Shown piece by piece: positions 12,962 through 53,972 of a stretch of DNA of 64,000 nt (position 1 is its first letter; each line of letters opens with the position of its first letter). Under the pieces are notes generated by a model. That model had not been told where the DNA came from and made no database searches. It was given only the letters and a program-made list of their open reading frames with translations. Source of the stretch: Planctomycetota bacterium (GTDB taxonomy: Bacteria > Planctomycetota > PLA2 > JAEUHO01); contig JBFWRP010000005.1 of NCBI GenBank assembly GCA_050248855.1, forward strand, positions 8,389 to 72,388, given 5' to 3'. The position numbers and the translations under genes are program-made.

Positions 12962-13288
12962 GATCCTACCTGCGGCTCCGCCTCGGGACGTTCCGGACGT
13001 CGGTGACCCTTCGCAGCAGGAGGGCCGCCAGTCAGGTGCACGCCTACACCGCTGGGTACCCGCTCACCTACCCCGAAAACAAGCCGCCAGGCGCGCATAG
13101 ACGCCGCTCGGAGCGGAGCGCCACCTCCACGAACCGGGTCGCCAGGGCGACGGTAGCGCGCCCGCATCGGCGACGACTCGTGGTCTGGTCCCCCGTTGGC
13201 GTTCCGCGCTCACGCGCGGATTCGGTGCTCCGGCTTCGCCTGCGCAGCAGGGGTGCTGGTTCCGCACCACCCCTGCACCCCTCACGGT

Positions 13289-17233: not shown

Positions 17234-17402
17234 GTGCCTCCAACCTCCTGACGGCCTGCGGGGAGGTCGTAGGATACGGGCCGCGGGCCGTCGTCCCCCG
17301 ACCGCGCCGACCGACGCATCTGGGGGAGGCGTCCCGTAGGCTGCCGCTCGACCCCCCAGGGCCCCCCTACCCCGGGTCCGGTCGTGTGCGGTCGCGGAAG
17401 GG

Positions 17403-18467
17403 ATGGCCATGCCCAAGCACTTCCTCCTCGAGGAGCTCGCCGGTCTTGCCGGGGTGCCGGTGCGTCAGGTGCAGGCCTGGGAGACCGACGGCCTGCTCGG
17501 GGACGTCCCGCGCGACGCCTCCAAGCGCCCGCTCTACGGCTTCGAGCACGCCGAGCGCTGCGTGGAGCTGGGCGGACGAGGGCTCCAGCGCCGCCTGTGC
17601 GTGGTCAACCAGAAGGGCGGCGTCGGCAAGACGACCACGGCCTTCACCCTCGCCGCGGCGCTGGCGGACCTCGGGCGCCGCGTGCTCTGCGTCGACCTCG
17701 ACGCGCAGGCCAACCTCACCACGTCTTTCGGTTTCGATCCCGACGCGCTCGATCGCACCAGCGCGGACCTTCTCACCGAAGACGACGTCGGCCCCGAAGA
17801 CGTCATCCTCGAGACCAACCTCGAGGGCGTCCACGCGATTCCCGCCGACATCAAGCTGGTCAACGTGGAAGCCCGCATCCAGGACGAGATGCAGCGCGAG
17901 CGCATCCTCGACCGCAAGCTGTCGCCGCTCTACGACCGCTACCACTTCATCGTGTTCGACTGCCCGCCCAACCTCTCCCGCGTCACGATCAACGCGCTCT
18001 GCGCCAGCGAGGAAGTGATCGTGCCGATCGAGACGCAGTCCTACTCGATCAAGGCCATCAGCGACCTGACGCACACCTTCACGCTGCTCAAGCGCAAGAT
18101 GGGTCACGACCTCACGGTCTGGCTGCTCCCCACCAAGGTGGACCGCAGCGTCAAGATCGCCACCGACATCCTCGACGCGCTCGACGACGCGTTCCGCGGT
18201 CGCCTGCTGGACCCGATCCACGTCGACCCCACCCTGATTCGCGCCCCGCTGCTGTGCGAGCCGATCACGCGCGCCTACCCGAACGCCCCCTCGGCGCTCG
18301 AGTACGCGCGCCTGGGGCGGTTCCTCACCTTGCACGACGCCGAGCGCGCGCAGTGGATGGGCCTCACGCTGGCCGAGCGTCGCCGGATCATCGAGAAGGC
18401 CGCGCGCGACGTCGCCGACGAGGCGGATCTTCCGCCGGCCATCAAGAAGAAGCGGCTATGGGGATGA
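17403..18467 (+). CDS. ParA/MinD-family ATPase with N-terminal MerR-like HTH
   Basis: Deviant Walker A NQKGGVGKTTTA. N-terminal LLEELAGLAGVPVRQVQAWETDGLL resembles a MerR HTH. 354 aa. Confidence 0.75.
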   Translation: MAMPKHFLLEELAGLAGVPVRQVQAWETDGLLGDVPRDASKRPLYGFEHAERCVELGGRGLQRRLCVVNQKGGVGKTTTAFTLAAALADLGRRVLCVDLDAQANLTTSFGFDPDALDRTSADLLTEDDVGPEDVILETNLEGVHAIPADIKLVNVEARIQDEMQRERILDRKLSPLYDRYHFIVFDCPPNLSRVTINALCASEEVIVPIETQSYSIKAISDLTHTFTLLKRKMGHDLTVWLLPTKVDRSVKIATDILDALDDAFRGRLLDPIHVDPTLIRAPLLCEPITRAYPNAPSALEYARLGRFLTLHDAERAQWMGLTLAERRRIIEKAARDVADEADLPPAIKKKRLWG

Positions 18468-18480
18468 TGGTTGCTTGGCG

Positions 18481-18650
18481 TGCGGCTAGGCGGCTCGCCG
18501 AGTGCTCGGCGGCGCCGGCGCGATCCGCTCCTCGAGTGAACAGACCACGAGTCGTCGCGGATCGCTTGGCGGCGCCTTCGCCCTGACGAGCCGAGGTGCG
18601 ACGGCCGCGACTCGAACCCAGGCGTGCTTGCTTCTGGGTGGCTTGCGCAC
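18481..18650. repeat. Interspersed structured repeat element (paralogue of 46769-46956)
   Basis: Shares ctcctcgagtgaacagaccacgagtcgtcgc (30/30) and gccctgacga with the copy after ftsK. Here the shared core is flanked by an internal inverted repeat gcgatccgc...gcggatcgc. Sits between convergent genes. Confidence 0.8.
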
Positions 18651-36762: not shown

Positions 36763-37222
36763 GTATGTCCGCTGGTGCTCGGGAGGCAGGGATGGACCGC
36801 TGGCGACCCCCGGCCTCCCCGCCGGGATCGCGCCGTGAGTCTAGGGATCTGGGCCCCCCCTCCGAAGGTTTGCCGCCCCCGCGACCGTGCGCGCGAGGCC
36901 TCCTCGCAGGGGCTGGTCGGCGAACGTGCGTTCGTCGGGTCGGAGGCGCGCCGGGCGAAACCACAGCGCTCGTGCGATACATGAGAACGGCTCGCAGGAT
37001 GAAGGTGGCTCTCGACCTCTGCTCGGGAGCCACCCTGGGGCGTTCGCAATGTCGCGCGCGCTCGACACGCAGCGCCCCGGTGACGAGTCGTCTGGACGCT
37101 CGATCCGGGCGAGGCCCAGGTTTCCGGGCCTCGACCTCGCGGTCCCCCTCTTGCGTTCGAGGCGGTCGTGGTGGAGGACAGACGCGTCCGGCGGCAACGC
37201 CTGCGCGTCGCGAGGACCCGCC

Positions 37223-39244
37223 ATGCCCATCCTCATCCGCTCCGTTCGCCGCTTGCCCCTCGCCCTCCAAGCCGCCGCCGTGGCGACCCTCCTCACCGCG
37301 TGCGGTGCTCCTACCGACACGCTGCGTCCGGCGACGCTGTCGATGTCGCCGCGCGTCGTGGACGCCAGTGCCAGCGCGCCGTGCGTGATCCGGGGCATGG
37401 ACTTCGGTGACGGGCCCGTCTCGGTGCGCCTCATCGACCATGACGGTCGCATCGTGGGCCCCGTGCGGACCACCGAGCCCAGTGCCGACGGCCACCAGCT
37501 GGCCATGCTGACGGCGATCCTGCCCGAGCTCGAAGACGACACGTGGGTGCGCGTGCAGATCCAGACGGCCGACGGGCGCATCGCCTGCACGGACGAGAAC
37601 GTGCTCGTGAAGGCCGGCGTCGAGGCGCCGCGCCTGATCGATGGCCGCGAGACCAACCCGTCGGACGCCGCCATGGGCTCGACCGGAATCGGTCTGCGAC
37701 GCGATGTGCCGCCGGCCTTCGCCGATGGGGTGGCGACGCTGGCCCGACCCGAGCAGAAGAACCCGCGCACCATCAGCAACACGTTGGTGGCGCAGCCGGC
37801 GGCCCTGCCGCCCGTGACCGGGGCGGTGCCCTCGGACCTGTTCTGGTGCTTCGGCCAGTTCCTCGACCACGACCTGGACCTCTCGCCCGAGAGCGAGAGC
37901 GGCGAGCGCGCCGACGTGGCGATCCCCGCAGGTGACCCGTGGTTCGACCCGTTCGCGACGGGCGCCGTCGTGCTGCCCTTCAAGCGCTCGGCCGCCCTCA
38001 CCGGGAGCGGCGACGGGCCTGGCGACCCGCGCCGGCCCATGAACGCCATCACGGCGTGGATCGACGGCTCGAACGTGTACGGCTCCGACCCGGAACGGGC
38101 CCGCGCGCTGCGCACGCTCGACGGCACGGGGCGCCTGCGGGTCGACGCCGAAGGCTTCCTGCCCCTCAACACGGAGGGCTTTCCCAACGCGCCTACGCCG
38201 CACGACCCCACGCTGTTCCTCGCGGGCGACGTCCGCGCCAACGAACAGGTCGGTCTGACGGCATTGCACACGATCTTCGTCCGCGAGCACAACCTCGTGG
38301 CCGACGAGCTGCGCGCGGCCAACCCGCACCTGTCCGGGGACGAGATCTACGAGGCGGCCCGCCGCTTCGTCGGCGCCGAGCTGCAGGCGATCGCCTACGA
38401 GGAGTTCCTCCCGACGCTGCTCGGCGAGGGCGCGCTGCCGCCGTACGCAGGCCTGCGCACGGACGAAGACGCCTCGATCGGCGTGTTGTTCTCGACGGCC
38501 GCGTTCCGCCTGGGCCACACGATGGTCGGCGGCACGATCCTCCGGCTCACGCGCTACGGGACGCCGCTTGCCGAGGGCCATCTGAGCCTGCGCGACGCGT
38601 TCTTCCAGCCGCAGATCCTGCGTACGGAGGGCGGTGTGGATCCCGTGCTACGCGGCTTGGCGGCCAACCCGGCCCAGGCGATCGACCCGTTCATCGTGGA
38701 CGACTTGCGCAACTTCCTGTTCGGCCCTCCCGGCGCCGGCGGCCTCGATCTCGCAGCCTTGAACATCCAGCGCGGTCGCGACCACGGCCTGCCGTCGTAC
38801 AACGCGTGTCGCGTGGCCTACGGCTTGGCGCCGCGCGCGTCGTTCGACGAGGTGACGAGCAACCCCGAGGTGCGCACGCGTCTCGCGGCCTGCTGGGACA
38901 GCCCCGATGTCGCCGACCCGTGGCCGGTGCTCCTGGCCGAGGACCGTGCTCCGCTCTCGCTCGTGGGCGAGACGCTGACGACGGTGCTCGCCGACCAGTT
39001 CCGCCGCGTGCGTGACGCCGACCGGTGCTGGTACGAACGGATCTACCTCGGCGAGACGTTGGCGCGTCTGAAGGCCACACGGCTCGCGGACGTGATCCGT
39101 CGCACGACGACGATCCGCAACGAGATCTCGAGCACGGCCATGCTGGTGCCCGAAGTCGGGGCCGCTTCCACCAAGGGCGCCGTGCGCGAGAGCACGCGCA
39201 GCGCCGCGGAGCTGGGCAAGGTGGCGCTGGCCTTGGCGAAGTAG
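37223..39244 (+). CDS. Animal-type haem peroxidase (An_peroxidase family) lipoprotein
   Basis: ATG at 37223. Lipobox LLTACG. Distal His motif FGQFLDHDL. Proximal region FRLGHTMV. Ca-binding-like LDGSNVYGS. 673 aa. The antisense 620-aa ORF is rejected. Confidence 0.8.
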   Translation: MPILIRSVRRLPLALQAAAVATLLTACGAPTDTLRPATLSMSPRVVDASASAPCVIRGMDFGDGPVSVRLIDHDGRIVGPVRTTEPSADGHQLAMLTAILPELEDDTWVRVQIQTADGRIACTDENVLVKAGVEAPRLIDGRETNPSDAAMGSTGIGLRRDVPPAFADGVATLARPEQKNPRTISNTLVAQPAALPPVTGAVPSDLFWCFGQFLDHDLDLSPESESGERADVAIPAGDPWFDPFATGAVVLPFKRSAALTGSGDGPGDPRRPMNAITAWIDGSNVYGSDPERARALRTLDGTGRLRVDAEGFLPLNTEGFPNAPTPHDPTLFLAGDVRANEQVGLTALHTIFVREHNLVADELRAANPHLSGDEIYEAARRFVGAELQAIAYEEFLPTLLGEGALPPYAGLRTDEDASIGVLFSTAAFRLGHTMVGGTILRLTRYGTPLAEGHLSLRDAFFQPQILRTEGGVDPVLRGLAANPAQAIDPFIVDDLRNFLFGPPGAGGLDLAALNIQRGRDHGLPSYNACRVAYGLAPRASFDEVTSNPEVRTRLAACWDSPDVADPWPVLLAEDRAPLSLVGETLTTVLADQFRRVRDADRCWYERIYLGETLARLKATRLADVIRRTTTIRNEISSTAMLVPEVGAASTKGAVRESTRSAAELGKVALALAK

Positions 39245-44328: not shown

Positions 44329-46770
44329 ATGGCCGCACGATCCACCTCTGCCGCCGCGAGCAAGAGCCGCGCGCGGACCCGTAGTCCTGCCGTCGAGGCG
44401 GAGCCCATCGGCCTCGAGCTGATCGGCTTGGCCCTCGGTCTGGCCTCCTTGCTGTTGTTGGCGGCATTGGCGACCCAGGCTCCCGCGTCCGCGGGCGGGG
44501 GCTGGCGCAACGCCGTCGGAGCGACGGGTCGCGTGGTCGCGCAGGCGCTGACGGGGGCGCTGGGCCTCGGGGCGCTGGCCGCACCGATCTTCGGCCTGAC
44601 CTGGGCGATCGCCTGCCTGCGCGGGCGGCCGCCTGGACGCTGGGCGCTCAAGGCCGCCCTGCTGCCCGTCGCGATGGCCCTCGTGGCCGTGCTGGCGGCC
44701 CTGCTCTTCGAGCGGCTGCACCTGCCGGGCGTCGACCGCTACGGACCCGGGGGCTACTTCGGCCTCGCGCTGGGCACCGCGCTGTATGACGTGATCGGAC
44801 CGTCCTCGAGCCTCGTGCTCGCCGTCGGTCTGCTCGCGGTCGGGGCGTTGCTCGTGGACTTGTCCATCTCCGGCGTCGCGCGGGGCGTCCTGTCCCGCGC
44901 CGGCTCCCCGTCCACCGCGAAGACCTCGCGCAAGGCCAAGCCGCGCCGCGCTCGCGAGGCCGACGAAGTCACGAGCGAAGACGAGACGTGGGACGACGCG
45001 GAGGACGAGGACGAGGAGGGCGACGAGGAGTACGACGAGGACGAGTACGAAGACGACGAGGAGTGGGACGAGGAGGACGAAGACGACGAGGAGGACGAGG
45101 ACGACGAGGCGGAGGCCGAGGACGACGACGATCCCGCGCGTGCGGAGGCGGCGGCCCGGCGGGCCGCGGCCCGCGAGCGCCGCGAGCTGCCTCCGGTCCC
45201 CCGCGACAAGAAGCCCTGGAAGCCCAAGGGCAAGTACGTCCCGCCCCCCATCGAGCTCCTGGCCTGCGGCAAGTCCGTCGAGGAGGCCAACGTCAAGGAG
45301 GAGGTCGAGGCCCGCGCCGACACCCTCGAGGAGACGCTCCGGGCCTTCCGGATCGAGGCCAAGGTGGTCAGCTACCGCCGCGGCCCGGTCATCACGTTCT
45401 ACGAGGTCCAGGTGCCGCCGGGCGTGGCGGGCAGCCAGGTCGCCAAGCGCGCCGACGACATCGGCCGGGCGCTCAAGGTCGGCAAGGTCCGCGTCGTCAC
45501 GAACATGCGCGGCTTGGACACGATCGGCATCGAGGTAGGCAACGAGCAGCGCGACGACGTGACGCTGCGTGACTTGCTCGAGGAGTCGGGGCCCAAGATC
45601 GACCGTCTCGAGATCCCGCTGCTGCTCGGCCGCGACACGTCGGGACGCCCCGTCGTGGAGGATCTGGCCAAGATGCCGCACTGCTTGATCGCAGGCGCCA
45701 CGGGCGCGGGCAAGAGCGTGTGCATCAACTCCGTGCTGCAGTCGATCCTGTTCACGCGCGGGCCCGACGAGGTCAACCTGATCCTCGTGGACCCCAAGCA
45801 GGTCGAGCTGGCCTCCTACGAGGGCATCCCGCACTTGGCCACGGGCGTCGAGACCGACCCCAAGCGGGCCGGCAAGATCCTGCAGTGGGCCGTGGAGCGG
45901 ATGGAGGAGCGCTACCACCAGCTCAAGTGCACGGGCGTGCGCAACGTCAAGGGCTACAACGACCTGCCCGCGGCCCGGCGCGCAGCCTCCCGCGAGCGCC
46001 ACGGGATGGACGAGGAGACGCTGCCCGACCGCCTGCCCTACATCGTGATCGTGGTCGACGAAATGGCCGACCTCATCATGACGGGCGGCAAGGACGTCGA
46101 GCTGGCCATCACCCGCTTGGCGCAGAAGAGCCGCGCGGTCGGCATCCACCTGATCCTGGCCACGCAGCGCCCCGAGCGCACCGTCATCACGGGCCTCATC
46201 AAGGCCAACATGCCGACGCGCATCGCCTTCACCGTGTCGAGCAAGCTCGACAGCCGCGTCGTGCTCGACCAGAACGGCGCCGAGGCCCTGCTCGGCATGG
46301 GCGACATGCTCTTCCTCTCGCCGCGCAGCATGTTCCCGATCCGCGGCCAGGGCGCGCTGGTCACCGACGACGAGGTGCTCGAGGTCGTGCAGGACCTCAA
46401 GAACAAGTACCCGGACGTCGAGTACCAGGACCTGCTCAAGCAGCAGCAACAGACGCAGGGCGATCCCATGGCCCGCGACGAGCTCTACAACGACGCCGTG
46501 CGGCTCGTGCTCTCCAAGAAGCTCGGTAGCGCCAGCATGCTCCAGCGCTGCATGGGCATCGGCTACACACGGGCCTCGCGGCTCATCGAGATGATGGAGG
46601 AGCAGGGCGTGGTGGGCCCCCACCAGGGCAGCAAGGCGCGCGAGCTCTACGTGGACCTGGACGAGTGGGAGGCCGACCTGGCCGCCCGCGGCCCGGCCGA
46701 GAGCCCGGAAGGCCCGACGGCCGAGTACGACCACGACGACCCGCCCGCCGTCGACACCAGCTGGGACTAG
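44329..46770 (+). CDS. ftsK: DNA translocase FtsK
   Basis: N-terminal 4-TM domain. Long acidic linker. Motor with Walker A GATGAGKS and Walker B [8 protein letters not shown]. C-terminal gamma winged helix [31 protein letters not shown]. 813 aa. Confidence 0.9.
   Translation: [813 protein letters not shown]
44995..45135. repeat. Low-complexity GAN/GAG acidic coding tract (D/E run in the FtsK linker)
   Basis: Encodes [46 protein letters not shown]. Confidence 0.7.
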
Positions 46771-46984
46771 AGGTGTCGCTACTGCCCGGCGTGGGGAGGT
46801 GCGGCTCGCCAGATGCTCGGCCGCGCACCACCATCGGCTCCTCGAGTGAACAGACCACGAGTCGTCGCCGATGGTGGCGCGCTGCCGTCGCCCTGACGAC
46901 CCGATCCGCGTCGTAGGCCCAGAAGGCCGGGCCCACGCGGACTCGGCCACGAAGATCCGCCCGCCGTCGACACTAGCTGGGACT
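46741..46984. mobile_element. 188-bp structured repeat element flanked by a 28-bp direct duplication of the ftsK 3-prime end (putative MITE-like insertion)
   Basis: DR1 at 46741-46768 is ccgcccgccgtcgacaccagctgggact. DR2 at 46957-46984 is ccgcccgccgtcgacactagctgggact (27/28). The interior carries the reverse-complement core ggctcgccagatgctcggcc and the 30-mer shared with 18518-18550, flanked by the inverted repeat caccaccatcggc...gccgatggtggcg. Confidence 0.65.
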
Positions 46985-47163
46985 GGCCGGCGGTGCCGGG
47001 CTCCTCCGCGTGCCGAGCCAGGCCCCCCGCACCCTTCAGCGCCCGTTGGGCAGGTCCGATCCAGCGGTACGGGGCGGCGTGCCGATCCGGCGGCGCGTCG
47101 TGCCCCCGTTCGGGGCGACTCCCCCCCTGTTCCGTGGGGGAGTCGTCCATTAGGGTCTTGCCG

Positions 47164-49134
47164 ATGCAGTCGGTCTTGCGACTCCTGCCTTCGTTCCTCG
47201 GGCCGGGACTGCTCCTCTTCCTCGTCTCCGTCCAGATCGCATGCGGCATGGACGGCTTCGAGTCCGGAGGCGGTCTTCTCGGCTTGCTCGAGGTGCCTGG
47301 CGTCCTCCTCGGCTGGGGCGGCGTCGCGTTGTTGCTGCCTCTGTTGACGTGGCTGCTGCTCGACTGGTGGGGCTACTCCCCCAGCGGCTTCGCGCTCAAG
47401 AGCCTCGGTGGCCTGGCGCTGGGGATCGCGGTCGGCGGGCTCGGCGGCCTGATGGGCGGGAAGGCCGGCGGCGGCCTGGTGGGCGCCGACCTCGCGGCCA
47501 TGCTCGCGGACAACCTCGGCTCGGCGTTTGCGATCTTCGCGCTGCTCTTGATGGCCGTGCCCGCGGGCATCCTCTCCTTCGCCAAGCTCGGCGTCGGCAC
47601 CGGGCGCAGCGTCGCGCCCAGCTCGACCACCACGCCAGCTCGCCCGCGCCGGGAGGCCCACGCGCCCAGCTCCGGCGATGGGCCGGCCGCCGGCGCCTCG
47701 GCTTGGCTCAGCGGGCTCGCAGCGCGCATGCCGCGTCGACGACCCAAGGTCACGACGGATCTCGAAGCGCTGGCGCGACGCAACGCGGGCGGCCGCGCGC
47801 GCTACCCACGGCAGCAGTTCGACGACCAGGGCAACGAGCTGCCCATGGCCTTCGAGGGCTCGCGCGACGTCGGCGTCATCCGGTTCGCGGACGGCAGCGA
47901 GCCCGATCCGGCCGCGGCCCCGGCCCGCGTGTCGCCGCCACGCTCCGCGCCCGTCGCACGCGACGACGGTCTGCCCACGCTCCGCGACGTCCTCTCGGGC
48001 CAAGCCGACGTGCCCGCGTCGACCGCCGGGGACGAGGCCGGCGGTGGGCTCGAAGCCGGGGCCGAGCCGGGCGAAGCCGGCGACGACACGGACGCGATGG
48101 GCGCGGCCTCGTCCGACGAGCCCACCTACGACGACATCGAGAGCGAGTTCGACGAGGAAGACGGCCCGATCCACGTGGACGCCCACGGCCGCCCCGTGCC
48201 CCGCCCCAAGCCCACGGCCGGGCGGCCCGCGGAGCCCGCGAACACGAGCAAGGTCCGCGGGCGCCCCGCGCGAGGGCCGGAGCTTCGCGACTCGCGCGAC
48301 GACGCGCCTGCGGCCGACGTCGTCCACCTGCCCGAGGCCGGGCCGCCCGCGAGCGTGCTGCTCGCGCGCGACCGTACGCAGAACGACGCCGAGGCACTGC
48401 CGCCGGGCGTGCGCTTCGCCGACGAGCCGGCGCCCGCCCCCACCGAGGAAACGTCCGGGCCTGCGCGCCGTCCCTCCCTGTCGGCGGAGGCCTCGACCCC
48501 ACGGAGCACGACGTCCGCGCCTGCCCCGACAGCCCCTGAGGCCGCCGGAGAACCGGTGCTGGAGGCCTTGAAGGGCACCACCGCGCAACGCGTGGCGATC
48601 CAGAAGGCGGAGGCCCGCGACCCCGAGACGCGCGCCGAGGAGATGCGCGCCGTTCGCAGCAGCGTGCGTCGCACCCTGGCGCCGGTCACCGACGAAGGCG
48701 CCGACCCGGTGCACCTGCGCAAGCTCGAGGCCTGCGGTCTGTTCGAGCCGACGACTGCCCCGGGCAGCAGGGGGTCGTCGCCGCCGAGCGGCGCGGCCCC
48801 GACCGCGCCCCTCGCCTCCTGGGCGGCCAAGGCGGATCGCGTGGCCGAGTCGGGGCCCCGCGTCGAGGCCGCACGTCTGGCCGCCCAGAAGGCGCTCGTC
48901 CACGAGCTCAAGGGCGAAGGGCGCGACCCGCTGTTCGCCGACGCCGTCGAGGTCGCCCTCTCCAGCGGGGCCGTGTCCGCCGCCCTTCTCGCGCGCCGCC
49001 TCGCCACCAGCCAGGAGCGGGCGCGCGAGCTGCTCCGGCGCCTCTTGGCCACCGACGTGGTCGGCGCGCCGGGCCCCTCGGGCACCTGCGCCACGGTGCT
49101 GACGCGCACCGTGTGGGACGAGATCCGGGGCTGA
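47164..49134 (+). CDS. Motor-less FtsK-like protein: FtsK-type multi-TM N-domain, long disordered linker, C-terminal FtsK-gamma-like winged helix
   Basis: ATG at 47164. Gly-rich TM bundle reminiscent of FtsK_4TM. About 400-aa Pro/Ala/Asp-rich linker. C-terminus DPLFADAVEVALSSGAVSAALLARRLATSQERARELLRRLLATDVVGAPGPSG parallels the FtsK gamma domain of the upstream gene. No Walker motifs. Confidence 0.55.
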   Translation: MQSVLRLLPSFLGPGLLLFLVSVQIACGMDGFESGGGLLGLLEVPGVLLGWGGVALLLPLLTWLLLDWWGYSPSGFALKSLGGLALGIAVGGLGGLMGGKAGGGLVGADLAAMLADNLGSAFAIFALLLMAVPAGILSFAKLGVGTGRSVAPSSTTTPARPRREAHAPSSGDGPAAGASAWLSGLAARMPRRRPKVTTDLEALARRNAGGRARYPRQQFDDQGNELPMAFEGSRDVGVIRFADGSEPDPAAAPARVSPPRSAPVARDDGLPTLRDVLSGQADVPASTAGDEAGGGLEAGAEPGEAGDDTDAMGAASSDEPTYDDIESEFDEEDGPIHVDAHGRPVPRPKPTAGRPAEPANTSKVRGRPARGPELRDSRDDAPAADVVHLPEAGPPASVLLARDRTQNDAEALPPGVRFADEPAPAPTEETSGPARRPSLSAEASTPRSTTSAPAPTAPEAAGEPVLEALKGTTAQRVAIQKAEARDPETRAEEMRAVRSSVRRTLAPVTDEGADPVHLRKLEACGLFEPTTAPGSRGSSPPSGAAPTAPLASWAAKADRVAESGPRVEAARLAAQKALVHELKGEGRDPLFADAVEVALSSGAVSAALLARRLATSQERARELLRRLLATDVVGAPGPSGTCATVLTRTVWDEIRG

Positions 49135-49200
49135 CCGCGAGGCCCCACAGGGCGCACACGCTCGGGAATCTTGGGCACGCGGCCCGGCCCCTCCCGTGGG

Positions 49201-50589
49201 ATGGAAGGGATGCCCGCCCCCGTGACCACCCCGACCGCGCGCTTGGCCCTGCTCTCGCTCGGCTGCGCCAAGAACCTCGTGGACAGCGAGCGGCTCGTCG
49301 GTGCCTTGACCGGTGCGGGCTTCGAGCTGGTCGAGCGGCTCGACGGCGCCGACCTCGCGCTCGTCAACACGTGCGGGTTCATCGAGGCCGCCAAGGAAGA
49401 GTCGATCGACACGATCCTCCAGGTCGCCCGCCACAAGGAGTTCGGCCGGCTGCGCGGGCTGCTCGTGGCCGGCTGCCTCGTCGAGCGCTACCGCGAGGAG
49501 CTGGCTCGCGAGATCCCCGAAGTCGATCGCTGGCTCGGCTTCGAGGACTACGCGCGCATCGTCAGCACCGCGCGCGAGCTCCTGGCCCTCCCGGCCGTTC
49601 GCGAGCTGCCGCCGCCGCGCGTGCTGTTGACGCCCACGGCTTACGCCTACCTGAAGATCTCGGAGGGCTGCGACCAGAAGTGCGCGTTCTGTGCGATCCC
49701 CTCGTTCCGCGGCCGCTTGGCCAGCCGCACGATCGAGGAGAACGTGGCCGACGCGCGCACGATCGCGGAGCGGGGTGTCGGCGAGATCGACATCGTCAGC
49801 CAAGACACCACGGCCTACGGCCGCGATCTCTACGGCAAGCCGCGGCTCGCGGACCTCCTGCGCGAGCTCACGCGGATCGACGGTCCGCGCTGGTGGCGCG
49901 TGCTGTACCTCTACCCCACGACGCTGCGCGACGACGTGCTGGACGAGATGGCGTCCAACGACCGCATCGCCAAGTACGTCGACATGCCGATCCAGCACGT
50001 GAGCGACCGCATGCTCAAGGCCATGCGGCGCGGCATCAGCGGCCCCAAGCAGCGCGCCCTGCTCGAGCGCATCCGCGAGCGGATCCCCGGTGTGGCGCTG
50101 CGCACCACGTTGATCACGGGTTTCCCCGGCGAGACGGACGCCGACCACCAGGAGGTCCTCGACACCGTACGGGAAGGCTGGTTCGACCGCCTGGGGGTGT
50201 TCACGTACAGCCCGGAGGAGGGCACGGCGGCCTACGACCGACCCGATCCGGTGCCCGAGGCGTTGATGGCAGAGCGTCGCGACGAGATCATGGCCGCCCA
50301 GCGGGAGGTCCACCATGCCCGCAACGCCGCGAAGGTCGGACGCGAGATCGAGGTACTCGTCGAGCGCCACGAGCCGCTCACGCGCCGCGCGTTCGGTCGT
50401 ACCGAGCACGATGCCCCAGACGTGGACGGATCGGTGCGGGTGACGGGCGTGGAGCATGCCCGCCCGGGTGCCGTGCTCCGCGTACGCGTGACCGCTTCGG
50501 AGGGCTACGACCTCGTCGCGGAGGCGCTGGGCACCGCCTCGACGCCGCCGCCGGGAAGCGCTCCCGCGGGCGGCCAGCCCGTACAGTAG
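49201..50589 (+). CDS. rimO: Ribosomal protein S12 methylthiotransferase RimO (radical SAM, MiaB family)
   Basis: LGCAKNLVDSE and NTCGF (UPF0004 domain). Radical SAM CDQKCAFC. TRAM domain. The start is 49171 or 49201. Confidence 0.85.
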   Translation: MEGMPAPVTTPTARLALLSLGCAKNLVDSERLVGALTGAGFELVERLDGADLALVNTCGFIEAAKEESIDTILQVARHKEFGRLRGLLVAGCLVERYREELAREIPEVDRWLGFEDYARIVSTARELLALPAVRELPPPRVLLTPTAYAYLKISEGCDQKCAFCAIPSFRGRLASRTIEENVADARTIAERGVGEIDIVSQDTTAYGRDLYGKPRLADLLRELTRIDGPRWWRVLYLYPTTLRDDVLDEMASNDRIAKYVDMPIQHVSDRMLKAMRRGISGPKQRALLERIRERIPGVALRTTLITGFPGETDADHQEVLDTVREGWFDRLGVFTYSPEEGTAAYDRPDPVPEALMAERRDEIMAAQREVHHARNAAKVGREIEVLVERHEPLTRRAFGRTEHDAPDVDGSVRVTGVEHARPGAVLRVRVTASEGYDLVAEALGTASTPPPGSAPAGGQPVQ

Positions 50590-51265: not shown

Positions 51266-51781
51266 ATGGGCGTTCCGTCCGAGGGAGTGGGTGCGTCCCT
51301 GGGCCGGGCCCAGCGCCTCGCCCTCGCGGCCTGCGGGCTCGGCTGGCTGCCTGGGGCTCCCGGCACGTGGGCGTCGCTGGGCACCGTCCTCGTCGCCCTG
51401 CCGTTCCTGGGCTCGTGCCTTGCGGGTGGCGCCGTGCTGGCACTCTTGCTGCTTGCGGGCTCGCTGGCGTGCCTGTCCTGGGGTGGCCGCGCCGTGCGTC
51501 CGGACGGACGGGGCGACCCGGGCTGGGTCGTGGCCGACGAGGTCGCGGGCCAGGCCCTTGCGCTCGGCGGCGCACTTCCCGCCGTGGTGACCCGTGAGCT
51601 CGCCACGTCGTGGTGGCTCGTGGCGCTTGCTTTCGTGCTGTTCCGCGCCCTCGACGTGGTCAAGCCTGGTCCGATCCGACGCCTCGAGCGCTTGCCCGGC
51701 GGACTCGGCGTGCTCGCCGACGACCTCGGTGCCGGAGCTGCCGCGGCTGTCGTCGTGGGCGTCGTCGGCCACTTCGCCTGA
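51266..51781 (+). CDS. pgpA: Phosphatidylglycerophosphatase A
   Basis: DEVAGQ...FRALDVVKPGPI motifs. 171 aa. Follows pgsA. Confidence 0.75.
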   Translation: MGVPSEGVGASLGRAQRLALAACGLGWLPGAPGTWASLGTVLVALPFLGSCLAGGAVLALLLLAGSLACLSWGGRAVRPDGRGDPGWVVADEVAGQALALGGALPAVVTRELATSWWLVALAFVLFRALDVVKPGPIRRLERLPGGLGVLADDLGAGAAAAVVVGVVGHFA

Positions 51782-51851
51782 GCGAGCGACCACGAGCCGC
51801 CGCGGGCCTATACTCCGCGCCGCGCGGGTTCGCCGCGAAGGGAGGACGCAC

Positions 51852-53972
51852 ATGGCCACTTCGCCCCGGCGATCGAGGGGACGCGACGACGAGCGCCGGC
51901 CCCGCCGGCCCCGCGACGGCGACACGCCGCCTGCGGCCAAGCCCGTGGTCCCGCCGGTGGTCCCGCCTGCAGCGAAGCCCGTGGTCCCGCCTGCAGCGAA
52001 GCCCGTGGTCCCGCCTGTAGCGAAGCCCGTCGTACCGTCCGCGGCAAAGCCGGTGGTCCCGCCCGCGGCCGCCACCCCCGTGGCCAAGCCGGTCGCCAAG
52101 CCTGCACCGCAGGCGCCGGCTCGACCCAGCTCACCGCCCTCCGCGGCCAAGGCCTCCTCCTCGTCGCGCGGCCCCCGGGCTCGCGAAACGGAGGTGGGCG
52201 GCCGCGGCCGCTCGCAGCGTCGCGGCGGCGGCATGTCGATCGGCTTGGCCTCGGCCCTGGTGGCCGCCGGCATCACCTTCCTCGTCCTGCTCGTGCAGCT
52301 GCTGATGTCGGGCCGCAAGGACGCCGAGGGCTCGCCCACGCGTGACGCCTTCGGCAGCGCCGCGGCAGCCGCCCTCGCGGGCGGCGACGACGCCGCGTGG
52401 ACCGGGGGCGCGCGCGCCGTGGCCTACGATGTGAAGTGGATCGAACGCCAGATCAGCAGCTTGTTCGGTGAACGCGGCGAACGTTGGTTCGACGACGAGA
52501 AGGCGCGCATCAACCCGGACCCGAAAGAGCTCGAGTCCATGGCCATGGACGAGATCGAGGCGATCCAGAAGCGCAAGGCCAAGTGGGACGAGACGGTCGA
52601 GAGACTGGCGGGGGCCAGCGTGGGCGCAGGCGACGACGACTCGCAGCGCATGAGGCGCCTCCTCAACAGGAACTTCCACCGCCTGTACTCGAAGGACGGC
52701 GTCTACCGCGTCATCGCGGCCCACGTGCTCAAGAACCCGGGCGCGGGCGCGCAGATCGTGGTCAGCCAGCCCGACAACGCCACGATTGCCCCCGACTGGT
52801 CCACGTACAGCACGAGCGCATCCAAGGGCGGCTCCGTCTCGGGCCAAGCCTCCATCGGGAGCGACTCCTGGCCCGTCACGATCTACCTGGCGGAGCTTCC
52901 CGGCAGCACCACCACGAGTCGCCTCATGGCCTCGGCAGCCGTCTACGAAGCCGGCTCGGCCGGCGGCGGCGGCGGAGCGGGACTGGGGCTGATCCTGTTG
53001 GTCTTGGGGCCCCTGCTTGCGGGCTTTGCCACCTTCGCGGTCGCCAACGGCTTCGGCGCCAAGATCAAGGCGCTGGCGCGCGAGATCGACCGCTTGGGCA
53101 GCACGGGCGACCCGACGCGATCGCTCCGCGCAGACGGTGCGGAAGCGTCCCTCGTGGCCCGCTCCGTCGAACGCATGGTGAGCACGCTCGAGTTCCGCTC
53201 CAAGCACGATGGCGCGGACCTGGACGAAGTGGCCCAGCGGGAGCGGGCCGTCGCCGAGGAGATCCACAAGGGTCTCGTCTCCAAGCACCCGCCGCGCCTG
53301 GACGGCTACGAGGTGGAGACGCTGTTCAAGCCCGGCTTCGAGATCGGCGGCGACCACTTCGAGTACTTCCGCATCGACGACACGCACCTGGGCCTGATCC
53401 TGCTCGACACGAACGTGCGTGGCCTGCAGGCCGCCTTGGTCATGGCATCCACGCGCGCGTACGTGCGCACGGCGGCGCCCGGCGTGCTCTCGCCAGCCCA
53501 GGTGCTGCGCGAGGTCAACCGTCACCTCGCCGGCGAGCTGCCGCCCGGCCGGCACGTGACGGCGCTCTACGCCGTGCTCGACATGAACGCGGGCACCGCC
53601 ACGCTGGCCAGCGCCGGGCACCTGCCGCTGCTCGTCTACCGCCACGCCGCGGGCAAGCTGTCCATGGTCAACCCCGAGGGGTTGGCCCTGGGCATGGACA
53701 CGGGCCCCGTGTTCGACGACGCGCTGCAGGAGGGCGAGATCCCGCTCGGAGTCGGCGACCGCATCGTCATGTACACGGACGGCGCGCTGAAGATCCAGAA
53801 CGCCGACGGCGAGGAGTTCGGCGAGCAGCGCTTCTACCAATCCGTGTCGCGCGAAGCGCCCAAGAACAGCCAGGCGTTCGTCAACTTCGTCGGCGGCGGC
53901 ATCGACGCGTTCCACGTGGGCGCCCAGCAGAACGACGACATCACGATCAGCACGATCAAGCGGCTGCGCTGA
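51852..53972 (+). CDS. PP2C/SpoIIE-family Ser/Thr phosphatase with N-terminal Pro-rich (AAKPVVPP)n repeat, TM segment and sensor-like middle region
   Basis: ATG at 51852 after AAGGGAGGA. Six PVVPPAAK-type repeats. TM GLASALVAAGITFLVLLVQLL. C-terminal PP2C motifs GGDHFEYF, LDTNVRGLQAAL, YTDGALK, NDDITI. Confidence 0.8.
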   Translation: MATSPRRSRGRDDERRPRRPRDGDTPPAAKPVVPPVVPPAAKPVVPPAAKPVVPPVAKPVVPSAAKPVVPPAAATPVAKPVAKPAPQAPARPSSPPSAAKASSSSRGPRARETEVGGRGRSQRRGGGMSIGLASALVAAGITFLVLLVQLLMSGRKDAEGSPTRDAFGSAAAAALAGGDDAAWTGGARAVAYDVKWIERQISSLFGERGERWFDDEKARINPDPKELESMAMDEIEAIQKRKAKWDETVERLAGASVGAGDDDSQRMRRLLNRNFHRLYSKDGVYRVIAAHVLKNPGAGAQIVVSQPDNATIAPDWSTYSTSASKGGSVSGQASIGSDSWPVTIYLAELPGSTTTSRLMASAAVYEAGSAGGGGGAGLGLILLVLGPLLAGFATFAVANGFGAKIKALAREIDRLGSTGDPTRSLRADGAEASLVARSVERMVSTLEFRSKHDGADLDEVAQRERAVAEEIHKGLVSKHPPRLDGYEVETLFKPGFEIGGDHFEYFRIDDTHLGLILLDTNVRGLQAALVMASTRAYVRTAAPGVLSPAQVLREVNRHLAGELPPGRHVTALYAVLDMNAGTATLASAGHLPLLVYRHAAGKLSMVNPEGLALGMDTGPVFDDALQEGEIPLGVGDRIVMYTDGALKIQNADGEEFGEQRFYQSVSREAPKNSQAFVNFVGGGIDAFHVGAQQNDDITISTIKRLR
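51931..52072. repeat. Tandem 24-nt coding repeat (gcagcgaagcccgtggtcccgcct, about 6 units)
   Basis: Direct reading of the sequence. Encodes AAKPVVPP units. Confidence 0.85.

What the first reader, a model, noticed from the sequence alone, without database searches (positions are those of the whole stretch)
44329..49134. Motor-less FtsK paralogue directly downstream of ftsK
The gene after ftsK encodes a 656-aa protein. Its N-terminal Gly-rich multi-TM bundle resembles the FtsK 4TM domain. Its C-terminal 70 residues (DPLFADAVEVALSSGAVSAALLARRLATSQERARELLRRLLATDVVGAPGPSG) parallel the FtsK gamma (KOPS-binding winged-helix) domain of the upstream gene ([51 protein letters not shown]). It has no RecA-like motor at all. 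Between the two domains lies a disordered Pro/Ala/Asp linker of about 400 aa. A membrane-tethered gamma-only protein could compete for KOPS or XerCD, or act as a divisome adaptor. The gene pair is also separated by the inserted repeat element described above.
Basis: partly seen in the sequence, partly recalled or inferred. Interest (0 to 1): 0.65.

Follow-up and report, generated by a model that had tools for sequence, protein, structure and literature searches.

The report
Motor-less FtsK paralogue beside ftsK
Next to the chromosome-pumping gene ftsK, this uncultured planctomycete keeps a second, intact FtsK-like gene with the membrane anchor and the small winged-helix "gamma" domain but no DNA pump; relatives conserve it, it has not been described, and its function is untested.

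Summary
Window 47164-49134 (+) encodes a 656-aa protein directly downstream of a complete ftsK (44329-46770).

- **C-terminus:** it is an FtsK gamma winged helix. The family profile hits only FtsK gamma structures in the PDB (E 2e-9). hhalign against the neighbouring FtsKs gives 96.8% probability. The AF2 model superposes on 2J5P/2VE9 at 1.3-1.4 Å.
- **N-terminus:** four confident TM helices. The link to FtsK_4TM is only borderline: Pfam hits in distant members (one above threshold) and a collinear hhalign match (P 0.0012).
- **Motor:** no alpha/beta motor and no Walker A in 35/35 members.
- **Not a pseudogene:** GC3 is 0.90, dN/dS is 0.17-0.35, and 49 cluster representatives exist, seemingly all Planctomycetota. 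ftsK lies upstream in 11 of 14 loci.
- **Linker:** about 440 aa, mostly disordered, but with five conserved short motifs.

The KOPS-reading residues (E. coli R1300/E1306) are lost family-wide, so KOPS competition is unlikely. The XerD-contact arginine is invariant.

Best reading: a membrane-anchored, KOPS-blind gamma adaptor that works with FtsK. The function is inferred, not shown. I class it as a new architectural variant of a known family, of moderate interest.

The parts
44329..46770 (+). Canonical ftsK (813 aa): 4TM, acidic linker, alpha, RecA-like motor (Walker A GATGAGKS at 45694-45717), gamma (about 46474-46653), conserved C-terminal tail
   Evidence: Pfam hits FtsK_4TM 48 bits, FtsK_alpha 83, FtsK_SpoIIIE 192 and FtsK_gamma 84. 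NCBIfam DNA translocase FtsK, E 5e-131. Start fixed by alignment to orthologues.
46726..46767 (+). Extreme C-terminal peptide of FtsK, [14 protein letters not shown], conserved in the clade's FtsKs
   Evidence: 8 of 9 clade FtsKs end in [YF]D.DDPP.VD[TE][SN]WD. Its function is unknown.
46769..46984 (.). 216-bp insertion in the ftsK-paralogue spacer: a repeat element (46769-46943) followed by a 41-nt copy (46944-46984, 90% identical) of the ftsK 3' end (46728-46768)
   Evidence: the repeat finder family D1 and inverted repeat I1. The pattern occurs exactly twice in the window against 0 expected. Partial copies of the element lie at 18490-18594 and 13135-13187.
47164..49134 (+). Motor-less FtsK paralogue, 656 aa (identical to NCBI hypothetical protein AB7T63_07275, Planctomycetota MAG)
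   Evidence: 100% match to P0001. GC3 0.91. dN/dS 0.30 against the L005 orthologue. No Walker A.
47164..47598 (+). N-terminal membrane domain (aa 1-145): four TM helices, each second helix preceded by a Gly-rich segment; invariant GWGG motif; FtsK_4TM-like
   Evidence: Hydropathy. AF2 helices 2-29, 39-68, 76-118 and 120-139 at pLDDT 80-97. hhalign against clade FtsK N-termini gives P 0.0012 over 124 collinear columns. Pfam FtsK_4TM hits in relatives P0029, P0030 and P0044.
47599..48918 (+). Cytoplasmic linker of about 440 aa (aa 146-585), mostly disordered
   Evidence: pLDDT mostly below 50. In-frame GC3 0.90. dN/dS 0.35.
47803..47892 (+). Linker motif 1: YPRQQFDDQGNELPMAFEGSRDVGVIRFAD (family consensus WYPxRRFDxxGNELPMxFxGxRDVGxIR[YF]AD)
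   Evidence: Within the 12-sequence alignment, P227, F230, D235, V236, G237 and R240 are invariant; across 35 sequences only R240 remains invariant. Local pLDDT is 81.
47971..48000 (+). Linker motif 2: LPTLRDVLSG
   Evidence: P271 is invariant and T272 nearly invariant. Short helix 273-277 at pLDDT 74.
48160..48198 (+). Linker motif 3: DGPIHVDAHGRPV
   Evidence: P335 and G342 are invariant among 12 sequences.
48397..48429 (+). Linker motif 4: LPPGVRFADEP. The [GD][VI]R[YF]A[DG] core recurs 1-4 times per family member
   Evidence: V416 and R417 are invariant in 35 sequences. This is the only occurrence in the six-frame translation of the window.
48712..48747 (+). Linker motif 5: HLRKLEACGLFE, at the end of a moderately confident helical stretch (aa 473-523)
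   Evidence: K520, L521, A523 and G525 are invariant among 12 sequences. Helices at pLDDT 60-79.
48919..49131 (+). C-terminal FtsK gamma-type winged helix (aa 586-656). The loop equivalent to the XerD-activating peptide is RRLATSQER (48994-49020). A post-wing helix with invariant W651 follows
   Evidence: Pfam FtsK_gamma in 32/35 members, best E 6e-16. Profile against PDB hits FtsK gamma at E 2e-9. hhalign against clade FtsKs gives 96.8%, E 2.8e-10. Foldseek top hit 2j5p, rmsd 1.3 Å; 2ve9 TMt 0.86.
49171..50589 (+). rimO-like radical-SAM methylthiotransferase, the conserved downstream neighbour and probably in the same transcription unit
   Evidence: Pfam UPF0004, Radical_SAM and TRAM_2. The same neighbour is present in every related locus that extends far enough.

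Best explanation
The gene encodes a functional, lineage-specific FtsK paralogue. It keeps the two ends of FtsK, a four-helix membrane domain and the gamma winged helix, and replaces the alpha/beta DNA pump with a long cytoplasmic disordered linker studded with conserved short motifs. Shown here: the architecture, the gamma homology and fold, the absence of any motor, purifying selection, and conserved placement directly after ftsK in an uncultured Planctomycetota lineage. Inferred: the membrane domain places the protein in the inner membrane, N-in and C-in, probably with or near FtsK, whose N-terminal domain targets the division site in model bacteria. The linker motifs recruit unknown partners. 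The gamma domain docks onto DNA without KOPS selectivity and/or onto XerD. In many relatives a Lys-rich histone-H1-like tract just before gamma reinforces the DNA-binding reading. The protein would therefore act as a passive membrane-chromosome or recombinase adaptor working alongside the FtsK motor, not as a translocase or a KOPS decoy. My confidence is about 0.85-0.9 for the identity and architecture and about 0.3-0.35 for the adaptor mechanism. The figure given combines the two.
For: - **Gamma homology.** 32/35 family members match PF09397, best E 6e-16. The family C-terminal profile finds FtsK gamma chains (2j5p E 2e-9, 2j5o, 2ve8/9, 5dcf, 2ius/2iut); the only other hit below E 0.7 is one Hop1 winged helix. 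hhalign of the family against 9 clade FtsKs gives 96.8%, E 2.8e-10 over 73 columns. tblastn of the window FtsK hits the paralogue gamma in L003, L008 and L011 at E 4e-7 to 6e-8. AF2 pLDDT is 93-97, and the best superpositions are FtsK gamma (rmsd 1.2-1.5 Å, TMt 0.77-0.86).
- **N-terminus.** Four helices at pLDDT 80-97. hhalign gives P 0.0012 over 124 collinear columns covering TM1-TM4, against P about 0.5 for reversed controls. Pfam FtsK_4TM hits occur in family members P0029 (27.2 bits, above the gathering score), P0030 (22.6) and P0044 (17.7), always on model positions 50-161.
- **No motor.** No Pfam alpha or SpoIIIE hit at E<=10 among the 12 closest members, nor at E<=0.01 in any of the 35. 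No hhalign match to FtsK residues 170-710. No Walker A in 35/35 members, against 9/9 FtsKs.
- **Functional gene.** GC3 is 0.90-0.99 in every segment. dN/dS is 0.17 (N-terminus), 0.35 (linker) and 0.34 (gamma). There are 49 representatives at 50% identity.
- **Synteny.** ftsK lies upstream on the same strand in 11 of 14 loci, down to about 30% protein identity.
- **KOPS-blind.** Arg at the R1300 position in 1/32 members; a hydrophobic residue at E1306 in 30/32. The clade FtsKs all keep Arg at R1300, an acidic residue at E1303, and Glu or Cys at E1306 (PMC2680272).
- **XerD contact.** The R1289 equivalent is invariant (32/32) and R1297 is kept in 27/32. The family consensus loop RRLGVGYAR nearly matches the clade FtsK loop RRLG[IV]GYTR (PMC5052618). 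[quoted passage not shown]
- **DNA-binding hint.** 16/35 members carry 10 or more Lys per 40 aa just before gamma.
Against: - No functional data exist for any member, and all members come from uncultured MAGs.
- The window protein is the most derived member. Its XerD-loop equivalent is RRLATSQER (Gly and Tyr lost), the basic wing residue is Cys, and it has no Lys-rich tract. Both DNA binding and XerD binding are therefore less certain for this protein than for the family.
- Isolated gamma monomers bind DNA poorly; three gamma domains are needed per KOPS (PMC3384302). A tethered monomer might not bind DNA unless the membrane domain oligomerises, which was not tested.
- N-terminal homology to FtsK_4TM is borderline. 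There is no Pfam hit for the window protein. hhalign with only 11 family sequences gives E 0.28. HMM-versus-sequence scores are no better than shuffles after bias correction. An exhaustive N-terminal profile search of 1.84 billion proteins returned no canonical FtsK at E<=0.001.
- Co-localisation with FtsK is inferred only from gene adjacency and from E. coli knowledge.
- ftsK is not adjacent in 3 of 14 loci.
Confidence: 0.5

Rival explanations
1. Dedicated motor-independent activator of Xer recombination. The tethered gamma domain contacts XerD at the membrane or division site and switches on dimer resolution without translocation. Isolated gamma or XerC-gamma fusions do this in vitro, and the unrelated phage factor XafT does it in Vibrio.
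For: The R1289 equivalent, the key salt-bridge partner of XerD E184, is invariant in 32/32 members, and R1297 is kept in 27/32. Many members carry RRLGVGYAR, close to the 9-residue peptide RQFRIGYNR that suffices for activation. Gamma alone activates XerCD-dif (PMC3130261). The KOPS residues are lost while this loop is kept.
Against: The loop is also the structural helix-turn-helix turn and the most conserved part of all gamma domains, so its conservation is not specific evidence. The window protein's own loop is degenerate (RRLATSQER). Translocase-free activation yields topologically complex products that impair unlinking, which makes a stand-alone activator costly. The neighbouring FtsK already carries a complete gamma. 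No xerC or xerD was seen in the window.
Confidence: 0.2
2. KOPS decoy or competitor. The membrane-tethered gamma binds the same polar chromosomal motifs as FtsK and modulates FtsK loading.
For: It is a true gamma homologue encoded next to ftsK.
Against: The positions whose mutation makes E. coli FtsK KOPS-blind are not conserved. At R1300 the family has A/S/E/G and others, with Arg in 1/32. E1306 is V/L/I in 30/32. The window protein has E, R and L at the three positions, while all clade FtsKs keep the Arg. Monomeric gamma has poor KOPS affinity.
Confidence: 0.05
3. Regulator of FtsK through the membrane domain. The FtsK_4TM-like bundle co-assembles with FtsK's N-terminal domain, or with its conserved C-terminal DDPPxVDTSWD tail through the linker motifs. 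This would tune motor assembly or anchor FtsK to other division proteins in an FtsZ-less divisome.
For: The N-terminus is collinear with FtsK's and is the most constrained part of the protein (dN/dS 0.17). The tandem arrangement is conserved. The clade FtsKs carry a conserved terminal peptide of unknown partner. FtsK is the only essential dcw gene in Planctopirus and organises the divisome in FtsZ-less Chlamydia.
Against: No interaction evidence of any kind exists. The N-terminal homology is borderline. Three lineages keep the gene without an adjacent ftsK.
Confidence: 0.15
4. Membrane-tethered transcription regulator that merely uses a generic winged helix and has no functional link to FtsK.
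For: By Foldseek E-value, MarR, CodY and ArsR winged helices rank close to FtsK gamma. The protein has a membrane anchor plus a DNA-binding domain.
Against: Sequence profiles match FtsK gamma almost exclusively. The next PDB hit after the FtsK chains and one Hop1 winged helix has E 0.72. FtsK gamma gives by far the tightest superposition (1.2-1.5 Å, against 3-14 Å). Both termini align to FtsK in order, and the gene is syntenic with ftsK.
Confidence: 0.07
5. Decaying remnant (pseudogene) of a tandem ftsK duplication.
For: It lies in tandem on the same strand directly after ftsK, with both FtsK ends but no middle.
Against: The 656-codon ORF is intact. GC3 is 0.90 in frame throughout. dN/dS is 0.17-0.35. 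Full-length orthologues extend down to about 30% identity with conserved linker motifs. There are 49 cluster representatives and no alpha/beta remnant.
Confidence: 0.02

Closest known systems
FtsK DNA translocase (E. coli / P. aeruginosa type; Pfam PF13491 + PF17854 + PF01580 + PF09397)
   Same: Four-helix N-terminal membrane domain, long low-complexity linker and C-terminal gamma winged helix, in the same order. It is encoded in tandem with the canonical gene. The R1289 and R1297 equivalents are conserved.
   Different: It has no alpha/beta RecA-like motor and no Walker A, so it cannot translocate DNA. The KOPS-reading residues R1300 and E1306 are lost. The linker carries family-specific conserved motifs. 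The N-terminal similarity is only borderline detectable.
Isolated FtsK gamma and XerC/XerD-gamma fusions (experimental constructs; PMC3130261, PMC5052618)
   Same: A gamma domain acting without the translocase. These constructs show that such a domain can activate XerD through a 9-residue loop.
   Different: They are artificial and soluble, and they give topologically complex products. The natural protein here is membrane-anchored, and in the window copy the loop has diverged.
SftA / SpoIIIE-type FtsK paralogues of Firmicutes (from general knowledge)
   Same: A second FtsK-family gene with a division-of-labour logic.
   Different: They retain the motor, and SftA lacks the membrane domain. The protein here is the mirror image: membrane domain plus gamma, without the motor.
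Phage FtsK_gamma-like ORFs and the TerS-gamma fusion of Bacillus phages Sam46/Sam112 (PMC8190038)
   Same: A gamma domain used outside a translocase. The role of the stand-alone copies is unknown.
   Different: They have no membrane domain or long linker. The phage copies keep the host-like DNA-binding residues and occur in a viral packaging context.
XafT of TLC-phi (PMC6744903, PMC9226527)
   Same: A precedent for FtsK-independent activation of XerD by a small accessory factor.
   Different: From general knowledge, XafT is an unrelated fold, soluble and encoded by a mobile element; none of this was tested here.
Membrane-nucleoid tethers at the division site such as Noc or the MatP-ZapB Ter linkage (from general knowledge)
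   Same: The concept of linking chromosomal DNA to the membrane or divisome without a motor.
   Different: The folds are unrelated (ParB-like, ribbon-helix-helix). The similarity is analogy only and was not tested here.

Membership tests
FtsK/SpoIIIE DNA translocases | RecA-like P-loop motor domain (PF01580) with Walker A/B | tested here: not met
   No PF01580 hit at E<=10 among the 12 closest members, nor at E<=0.01 in any of the 35. No G-x4-GK[ST] in 35/35 members, against 9/9 neighbouring FtsKs. No hhalign match to the motor region.
FtsK/SpoIIIE DNA translocases | Alpha domain (PF17854) preceding the motor | tested here: not met
   No Pfam hit and no profile-profile alignment.
FtsK gamma domain (PF09397) | Sequence match to the gamma family | tested here: met
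   The window protein alone scores 24.3 bits, E 2.6e-5, below the gathering score of 30.6. At family level, 32/35 members match with best E 6e-16. The profile against PDB hits FtsK gamma at E 2e-9. hhalign gives 96.8%, E 2.8e-10.
FtsK gamma domain (PF09397) | Three-helix winged-helix fold superposable on solved gamma structures | tested here: met
   AF2 pLDDT is 93-97 for residues 590-656. Foldseek gives 2j5p rmsd 1.3 Å, TMt 0.78, and 2ve9 rmsd 1.4 Å, TMt 0.85-0.86.
FtsK gamma domain (PF09397) | KOPS-recognition residues in helix 3 (E. coli R1300, E1303, E1306) | tested here: not met
   The window protein has E, R and L at these positions. In the family, Arg at R1300 occurs in 1/32, an acidic residue at E1303 in 25/32, and a hydrophobic residue at E1306 in 30/32. 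The reference residues come from PMC2680272.
FtsK gamma domain (PF09397) | XerD-activating loop (E. coli 1289-1297, RQFRIGYNR; R1289 critical) | tested here: inconclusive
   R1289 is kept in 32/32, Leu at F1291 in 31/32, Tyr or Phe at Y1295 in 26/32, and R1297 in 27/32. The window protein has RRLATSQER, with Gly and Tyr lost. Binding was not tested.
FtsK_4TM (PF13491) | Four transmembrane helices at the N-terminus | tested here: met
   Four hydrophobic segments. AF2 helices 2-29, 39-68, 76-118 and 120-139 at pLDDT 80-97. Basic residues after TM4 fit a cytoplasmic C-terminus.
FtsK_4TM (PF13491) | Significant sequence or profile match to the family | tested here: inconclusive
   The window protein gives no hit at E<=10. 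Relatives: P0029 27.2 bits, E 3.5e-6 (above the 23.1 gathering score); P0030 22.6; P0044 17.7; 3/35 at E<=0.01. hhalign gives P 0.0012-0.0046 with the deep family alignment but 0.06-0.28 with shallow ones. No FtsK appeared in the exhaustive N-terminal profile search.
Pseudogene / duplication remnant | Disrupted frame, relaxed selection, no conservation | tested here: not met
   Intact ORF, GC3 0.90, dN/dS 0.17-0.35, and 35 or more full-length homologues.

The most novel reading that the evidence does not exclude
In this FtsZ-less phylum, FtsK is the one broadly conserved division gene and the only essential dcw gene in Planctopirus. The motor-less paralogue could be a dedicated structural component of an FtsK-centred divisome. 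Its FtsK_N-like bundle would co-assemble with FtsK in the membrane. Its conserved linker motifs would recruit lineage-specific division proteins or the conserved FtsK C-terminal peptide. Its KOPS-blind gamma domain would hold the terminus DNA or XerD at the constriction site. That would be a 'Ter linkage' built from a duplicated FtsK rather than from MatP/ZapB/FtsZ.
Probability: 0.15. Interest if true: 0.75.

Novelty: new variant of a known kind. Interest (0 to 1): 0.48.

Why it matters
FtsK has been treated as one indivisible design: an anchor, a pump and a reader domain. That gives a natural experiment on what the FtsK N-terminal and gamma domains do when they are uncoupled from translocation.

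The family occurs in a phylum that divides without FtsZ. In studied relatives of that phylum, FtsK is the key surviving division gene. If the protein links DNA or XerD to the membrane, it would point to a previously unrecognised way of coordinating chromosome resolution with division.

If it turns out to be only a lineage-specific accessory, it still adds a defined new architecture and a set of conserved linear motifs to the FtsK family. It would also correct 'hypothetical protein' annotations in these MAGs.

Tried and rejected
1. Searching the 5.8-billion-protein index with the window FtsK N-terminus, to build a diverse 4TM profile, returned nothing. Low-complexity words saturated the candidate list, so the FtsK template profile stayed shallow (9 clade sequences).
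2. hmmsearch of the family N-terminal HMM against clade FtsKs and shuffled or reversed decoys was uninformative. Composition-bias correction (17-27 bits) pushed real FtsKs below the shuffles, although they aligned collinearly over HMM positions 17-143.
3. The family N-terminal consensus sequence gave no Pfam hit.
6. The search for related loci with the 35-sequence alignment failed because no stretch was conserved enough. The 11-sequence N-terminal alignment worked.
7. NCBIfam has no model for the family.
8. Scoring the family gamma HMM against clade FtsKs (42.5-49.9 bits) and E. coli gamma (42.8 bits) did not show whether the duplication happened within this lineage.
9. No promoter- or terminator-like site was found in the spacer.
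10. Löwe 2008 and Sivanathan 2006 were not held. The KOPS-contact residues were taken from PMC2680272 and the figure legend of PMC3384302.
11. The pseudogene, KOPS-decoy and generic-transcription-factor readings were considered and rejected or down-weighted, as explained under the rival explanations.


Full report
**What is there**

The window is about 73% G+C. The target protein is identical to a hypothetical protein of a Planctomycetota MAG (AB7T63_07275).

ftsK occupies 44329-46770 (+). Its true start was fixed by alignment to orthologues. It has the full FtsK_4TM / alpha / FtsK_SpoIIIE / gamma architecture.

After a 393-bp spacer, an uninterrupted 656-codon ORF runs from 47164 to 49134 on the same strand. 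The longer GTG-initiated ORF from 46993 is not supported. Close homologues start at the MQSVLR position, and the extension lacks the coding GC3 signature.

rimO follows 36 bp after the stop.

**Is it a real gene?**

Yes.
- GC3 is 0.90-0.99 in all three segments and is highest in the annotated frame.
- Nei-Gojobori dN/dS against the L005 orthologue is 0.17 for the membrane domain, 0.35 for the linker and 0.34 for gamma.
- A word-index search found 14 homologues.
- An exhaustive HMM search of 1.84 billion cluster representatives with the N-terminal profile found 49. All are family-like, 500-850 aa or fragments.
- In GTDB species genomes the family was found in seven Planctomycetota MAG loci, plus one chimeric contig end.
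- No member has a Walker A motif, while all nine neighbouring FtsKs do.

The pseudogene reading is therefore rejected.

**C-terminal domain**

- Pfam matches FtsK_gamma weakly in the window protein (24.3 bits, E 2.6e-5, below the gathering score). It matches in 32 of 35 family members, with best E 6e-16.
- A profile of the family's last 85 residues, searched against all PDB sequences, hits only FtsK gamma entries: 2j5p (E 2e-9), 2j5o, 2ve8/2ve9, the XerD-gamma fusion 5dcf, and 2ius/2iut. It also hits one eukaryotic Hop1 winged helix (9mug, 5e-6). The next hit is at E 0.72.
- hhalign of the full-length family against nine clade FtsKs gives 96.8% probability, E 2.8e-10, over 73 columns. This includes a post-wing helix with an invariant Trp that the clade FtsKs share.
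- AF2 models residues 590-656 at pLDDT 93-97 as helix-helix-helix-wing.
- The tightest Foldseek superpositions are FtsK gamma structures (rmsd 1.2-1.5 Å, TMt 0.77-0.86). Other winged-helix families rank nearby by E-value but with rmsd of 3-14 Å.

**N-terminal domain**

Four hydrophobic segments are modelled as four helices at pLDDT 80-97. The second and fourth are each preceded by a Gly-rich helical segment.

The window protein gives no Pfam FtsK_4TM hit. More distant members of the same family do:
- P0029: 27.2 bits, E 3.5e-6, above the 23.1 gathering score.
- P0030: 22.6 bits.
- P0044: 17.7 bits.

These members were tied to the family by the N-terminal profile at E 1e-27 to 1e-36. Their hits always fall on model positions 50-161.

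Profile-profile comparison with the deep family alignment gives a collinear TM1-TM4 match to the clade FtsK N-termini. P is 0.0012 over 124 columns, against P about 0.5 for reversed controls. A secondary match offset by two helices fits the internal two-fold repeat of the 4TM domain.

Shallower alignments give E 0.06-0.28. HMM-versus-sequence scoring is swamped by the composition correction. No FtsK surfaced in the exhaustive search.

I rate the 4TM homology as likely but not proven. The fold libraries that could settle it were unavailable, and no FtsK_N structure has been solved.

**Linker**

Residues 146-585 are mostly below pLDDT 50. Five short motifs are conserved, the strongest down to about 30% identity:
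- WYPxRRFDxxGNELPMxFxGxRDVGxIR[YF]AD (aa 214-243).
- LPT[IL]xxVLxG (aa 270-279).
- DGPIHVDxxGRPV (aa 333-345).
- LPxGVR[YF]ADEP (aa 412-422), with V416 and R417 invariant in 35 sequences.
- [HRY]LxKLEAxG[LIM]F[DE] (aa 517-528).

The GVR[YF]AD core recurs one to four times per protein. In the window it occurs nowhere except in this gene. Nothing aligns to the FtsK alpha/beta region.

Sixteen of 35 members carry a Lys-rich, histone-H1/HC2-like tract immediately before gamma. The window protein does not.

**Gene neighbourhood**

ftsK lies upstream on the same strand, with nothing or only small genes between, in the window and in loci L002, L003/L004, L005 (the same contig as L014), L007, L008 (two small genes intervene), L009, L010, L012, L013 and L015. 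It is absent upstream in L001, L006 and L011. That makes 11 of 14 distinct loci, spanning protein identities down to about 31%.

rimO-pgsA-pgpA follows in every locus that extends far enough. A tandem duplication of ftsK between ftsK and rimO is the simplest origin. The gamma HMM scores do not resolve when it occurred.

**What the residues say about function**

In E. coli, R1300A/E1303A/E1306A makes FtsK KOPS-blind (PMC2680272). Using the HMMER alignment to 2j5p:
- The clade FtsKs all keep Arg at R1300, an acidic residue at E1303, and Glu or Cys at E1306.
- The paralogue family has Arg at the first position in 1/32 members and a hydrophobic residue at the third in 30/32.
- The window protein reads E, R and L at the three positions.

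Isolated gamma monomers also bind KOPS poorly, because three gamma domains read one site (PMC3384302). A KOPS-competitor role is therefore unlikely.

The XerD-activating peptide is RQFRIGYNR, with R1289 critical (PMC5052618). It is largely kept in the family: R1289 in 32/32, R1297 in 27/32, and consensus RRLGVGYAR against clade FtsK RRLG[IV]GYTR. The window protein's branch has diverged to RRLATSQER.

Gamma alone can activate XerCD-dif, although with topologically complex products (PMC3130261). Because this loop is also the structural helix-turn-helix turn, its conservation does not prove XerD binding.

**Mechanism**

Shown:
- A membrane anchor, a long flexible cytoplasmic linker with conserved docking motifs, and a gamma-type winged helix that lacks the KOPS-reading side chains.
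- No ATPase.
- Conservation next to ftsK.

Inferred:
- The protein is a passive adaptor or tether that operates with FtsK.
- It places a gamma domain at the membrane that binds DNA non-specifically and/or binds XerD. In many relatives a basic tract accompanies this domain.
- The linker motifs bind unknown partners.

Possible partners include the conserved FtsK C-terminal peptide ...DDPPxVDTSWD seen in 8 of 9 clade FtsKs, but this is speculation. In model bacteria the FtsK N-terminal domain targets the septum and is the division-essential part. In FtsZ-less PVC bacteria FtsK is central to division. That gives the adaptor idea its context, not its proof.

**Comparison and novelty**

The protein fails the defining test of an FtsK/SpoIIIE translocase because it has no motor. 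It passes as a bearer of an FtsK gamma domain, and probably of an FtsK_4TM-like domain.

Gamma domains outside translocases are known in phages, both as stand-alone ORFs and as a TerS fusion (PMC8190038). Motor-free Xer activation is known from artificial gamma constructs and from XafT.

My searches of the held literature found no description of a chromosomal, membrane-anchored, motor-less FtsK paralogue. NCBIfam has no model for it.

I class it as a new architectural variant of a known family. It is restricted to an uncultured planctomycete lineage, its function is inferred only, and its interest is moderate.

Noticed in passing
window 46726-46767 (and FtsK C-termini in L002, L005, L007, L009, L010, L012, L015): The clade's FtsK proteins end in a conserved extreme C-terminal peptide, [YF]D.DDPP.VD[TE][SN]WD, after a variable spacer behind gamma. 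It looks like a docking motif. The partner is unknown. The L003/L008 lineage has a divergent ...VSSPWD ending.
   Followed up: partly
window 46728-46984: A 216-bp insertion lies just after the ftsK stop. The last 41 nt of ftsK (46728-46768) are repeated at 46944-46984 (90% identity, in frame, stop TAG changed to TGG). The repeats flank a 175-bp element with a 37-nt imperfect inverted repeat. Partial copies of the element lie at 18490-18594 (84%) and 13135-13187 (92%, minus strand), so it is a dispersed small repeat or MITE-like element.
   Followed up: partly
window 47113-47148: A G+C-rich hairpin (13-nt arms, 92% complementary, 10-nt loop) ends 15 nt upstream of the paralogue start codon. No terminator- or promoter-like consensus was found in the spacer.
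   Followed up: no
L016 6040-6170: A 39% G+C contig labelled Aequorivita sp. carries about 120 nt of high-G+C sequence at its very end, encoding the family's GWGxVALLLPLLVWMVLDWWGY segment. AT-rich sequence with stop codons precedes it. This is most likely a chimeric contig end, not a Bacteroidota homologue.
   Followed up: yes
family proteins P0008, P0009, P0011, P0015, P0016, P0023, P0025, P0026, P0035, P0038 and others (region about 100-150 aa before the C-terminus): 16 of 35 family members carry a Lys/Ala-rich histone-H1/HC2-like tract (10-21 Lys per 40 aa) immediately upstream of the gamma domain. Four of them even match Pfam HC2. The window protein lacks this tract.
   Followed up: partly
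PDB 9mug versus family residues about 601-653: The family gamma profile matches the winged helix of the Schistosoma mansoni Hop1 chromatin-binding region (E 5e-6). The AF2 models rank it first or second by Foldseek. This is an unexpected sequence-level link between FtsK-gamma-like domains and a eukaryotic meiotic HORMAD.
   Followed up: no
window 36845-39244 (+): An 800-aa ORF with a strong animal haem peroxidase domain (PF03098, 449 bits) in this planctomycete.
   Followed up: no
window 17340-18467 (+): A ParA/MinD/MipZ-like P-loop ATPase gene (AAA_31, 174 bits) is immediately followed by a copy of the same small repeat element that sits between ftsK and the paralogue.
   Followed up: no
window 51594-53972 (+): A SpoIIE-type PP2C phosphatase has an N-terminal (P)AAKPVVPP tandem peptide repeat and a membrane segment. 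A SpoIIE-domain gene is also seen downstream of pgpA in several related loci (L001, L005, L007).
   Followed up: no
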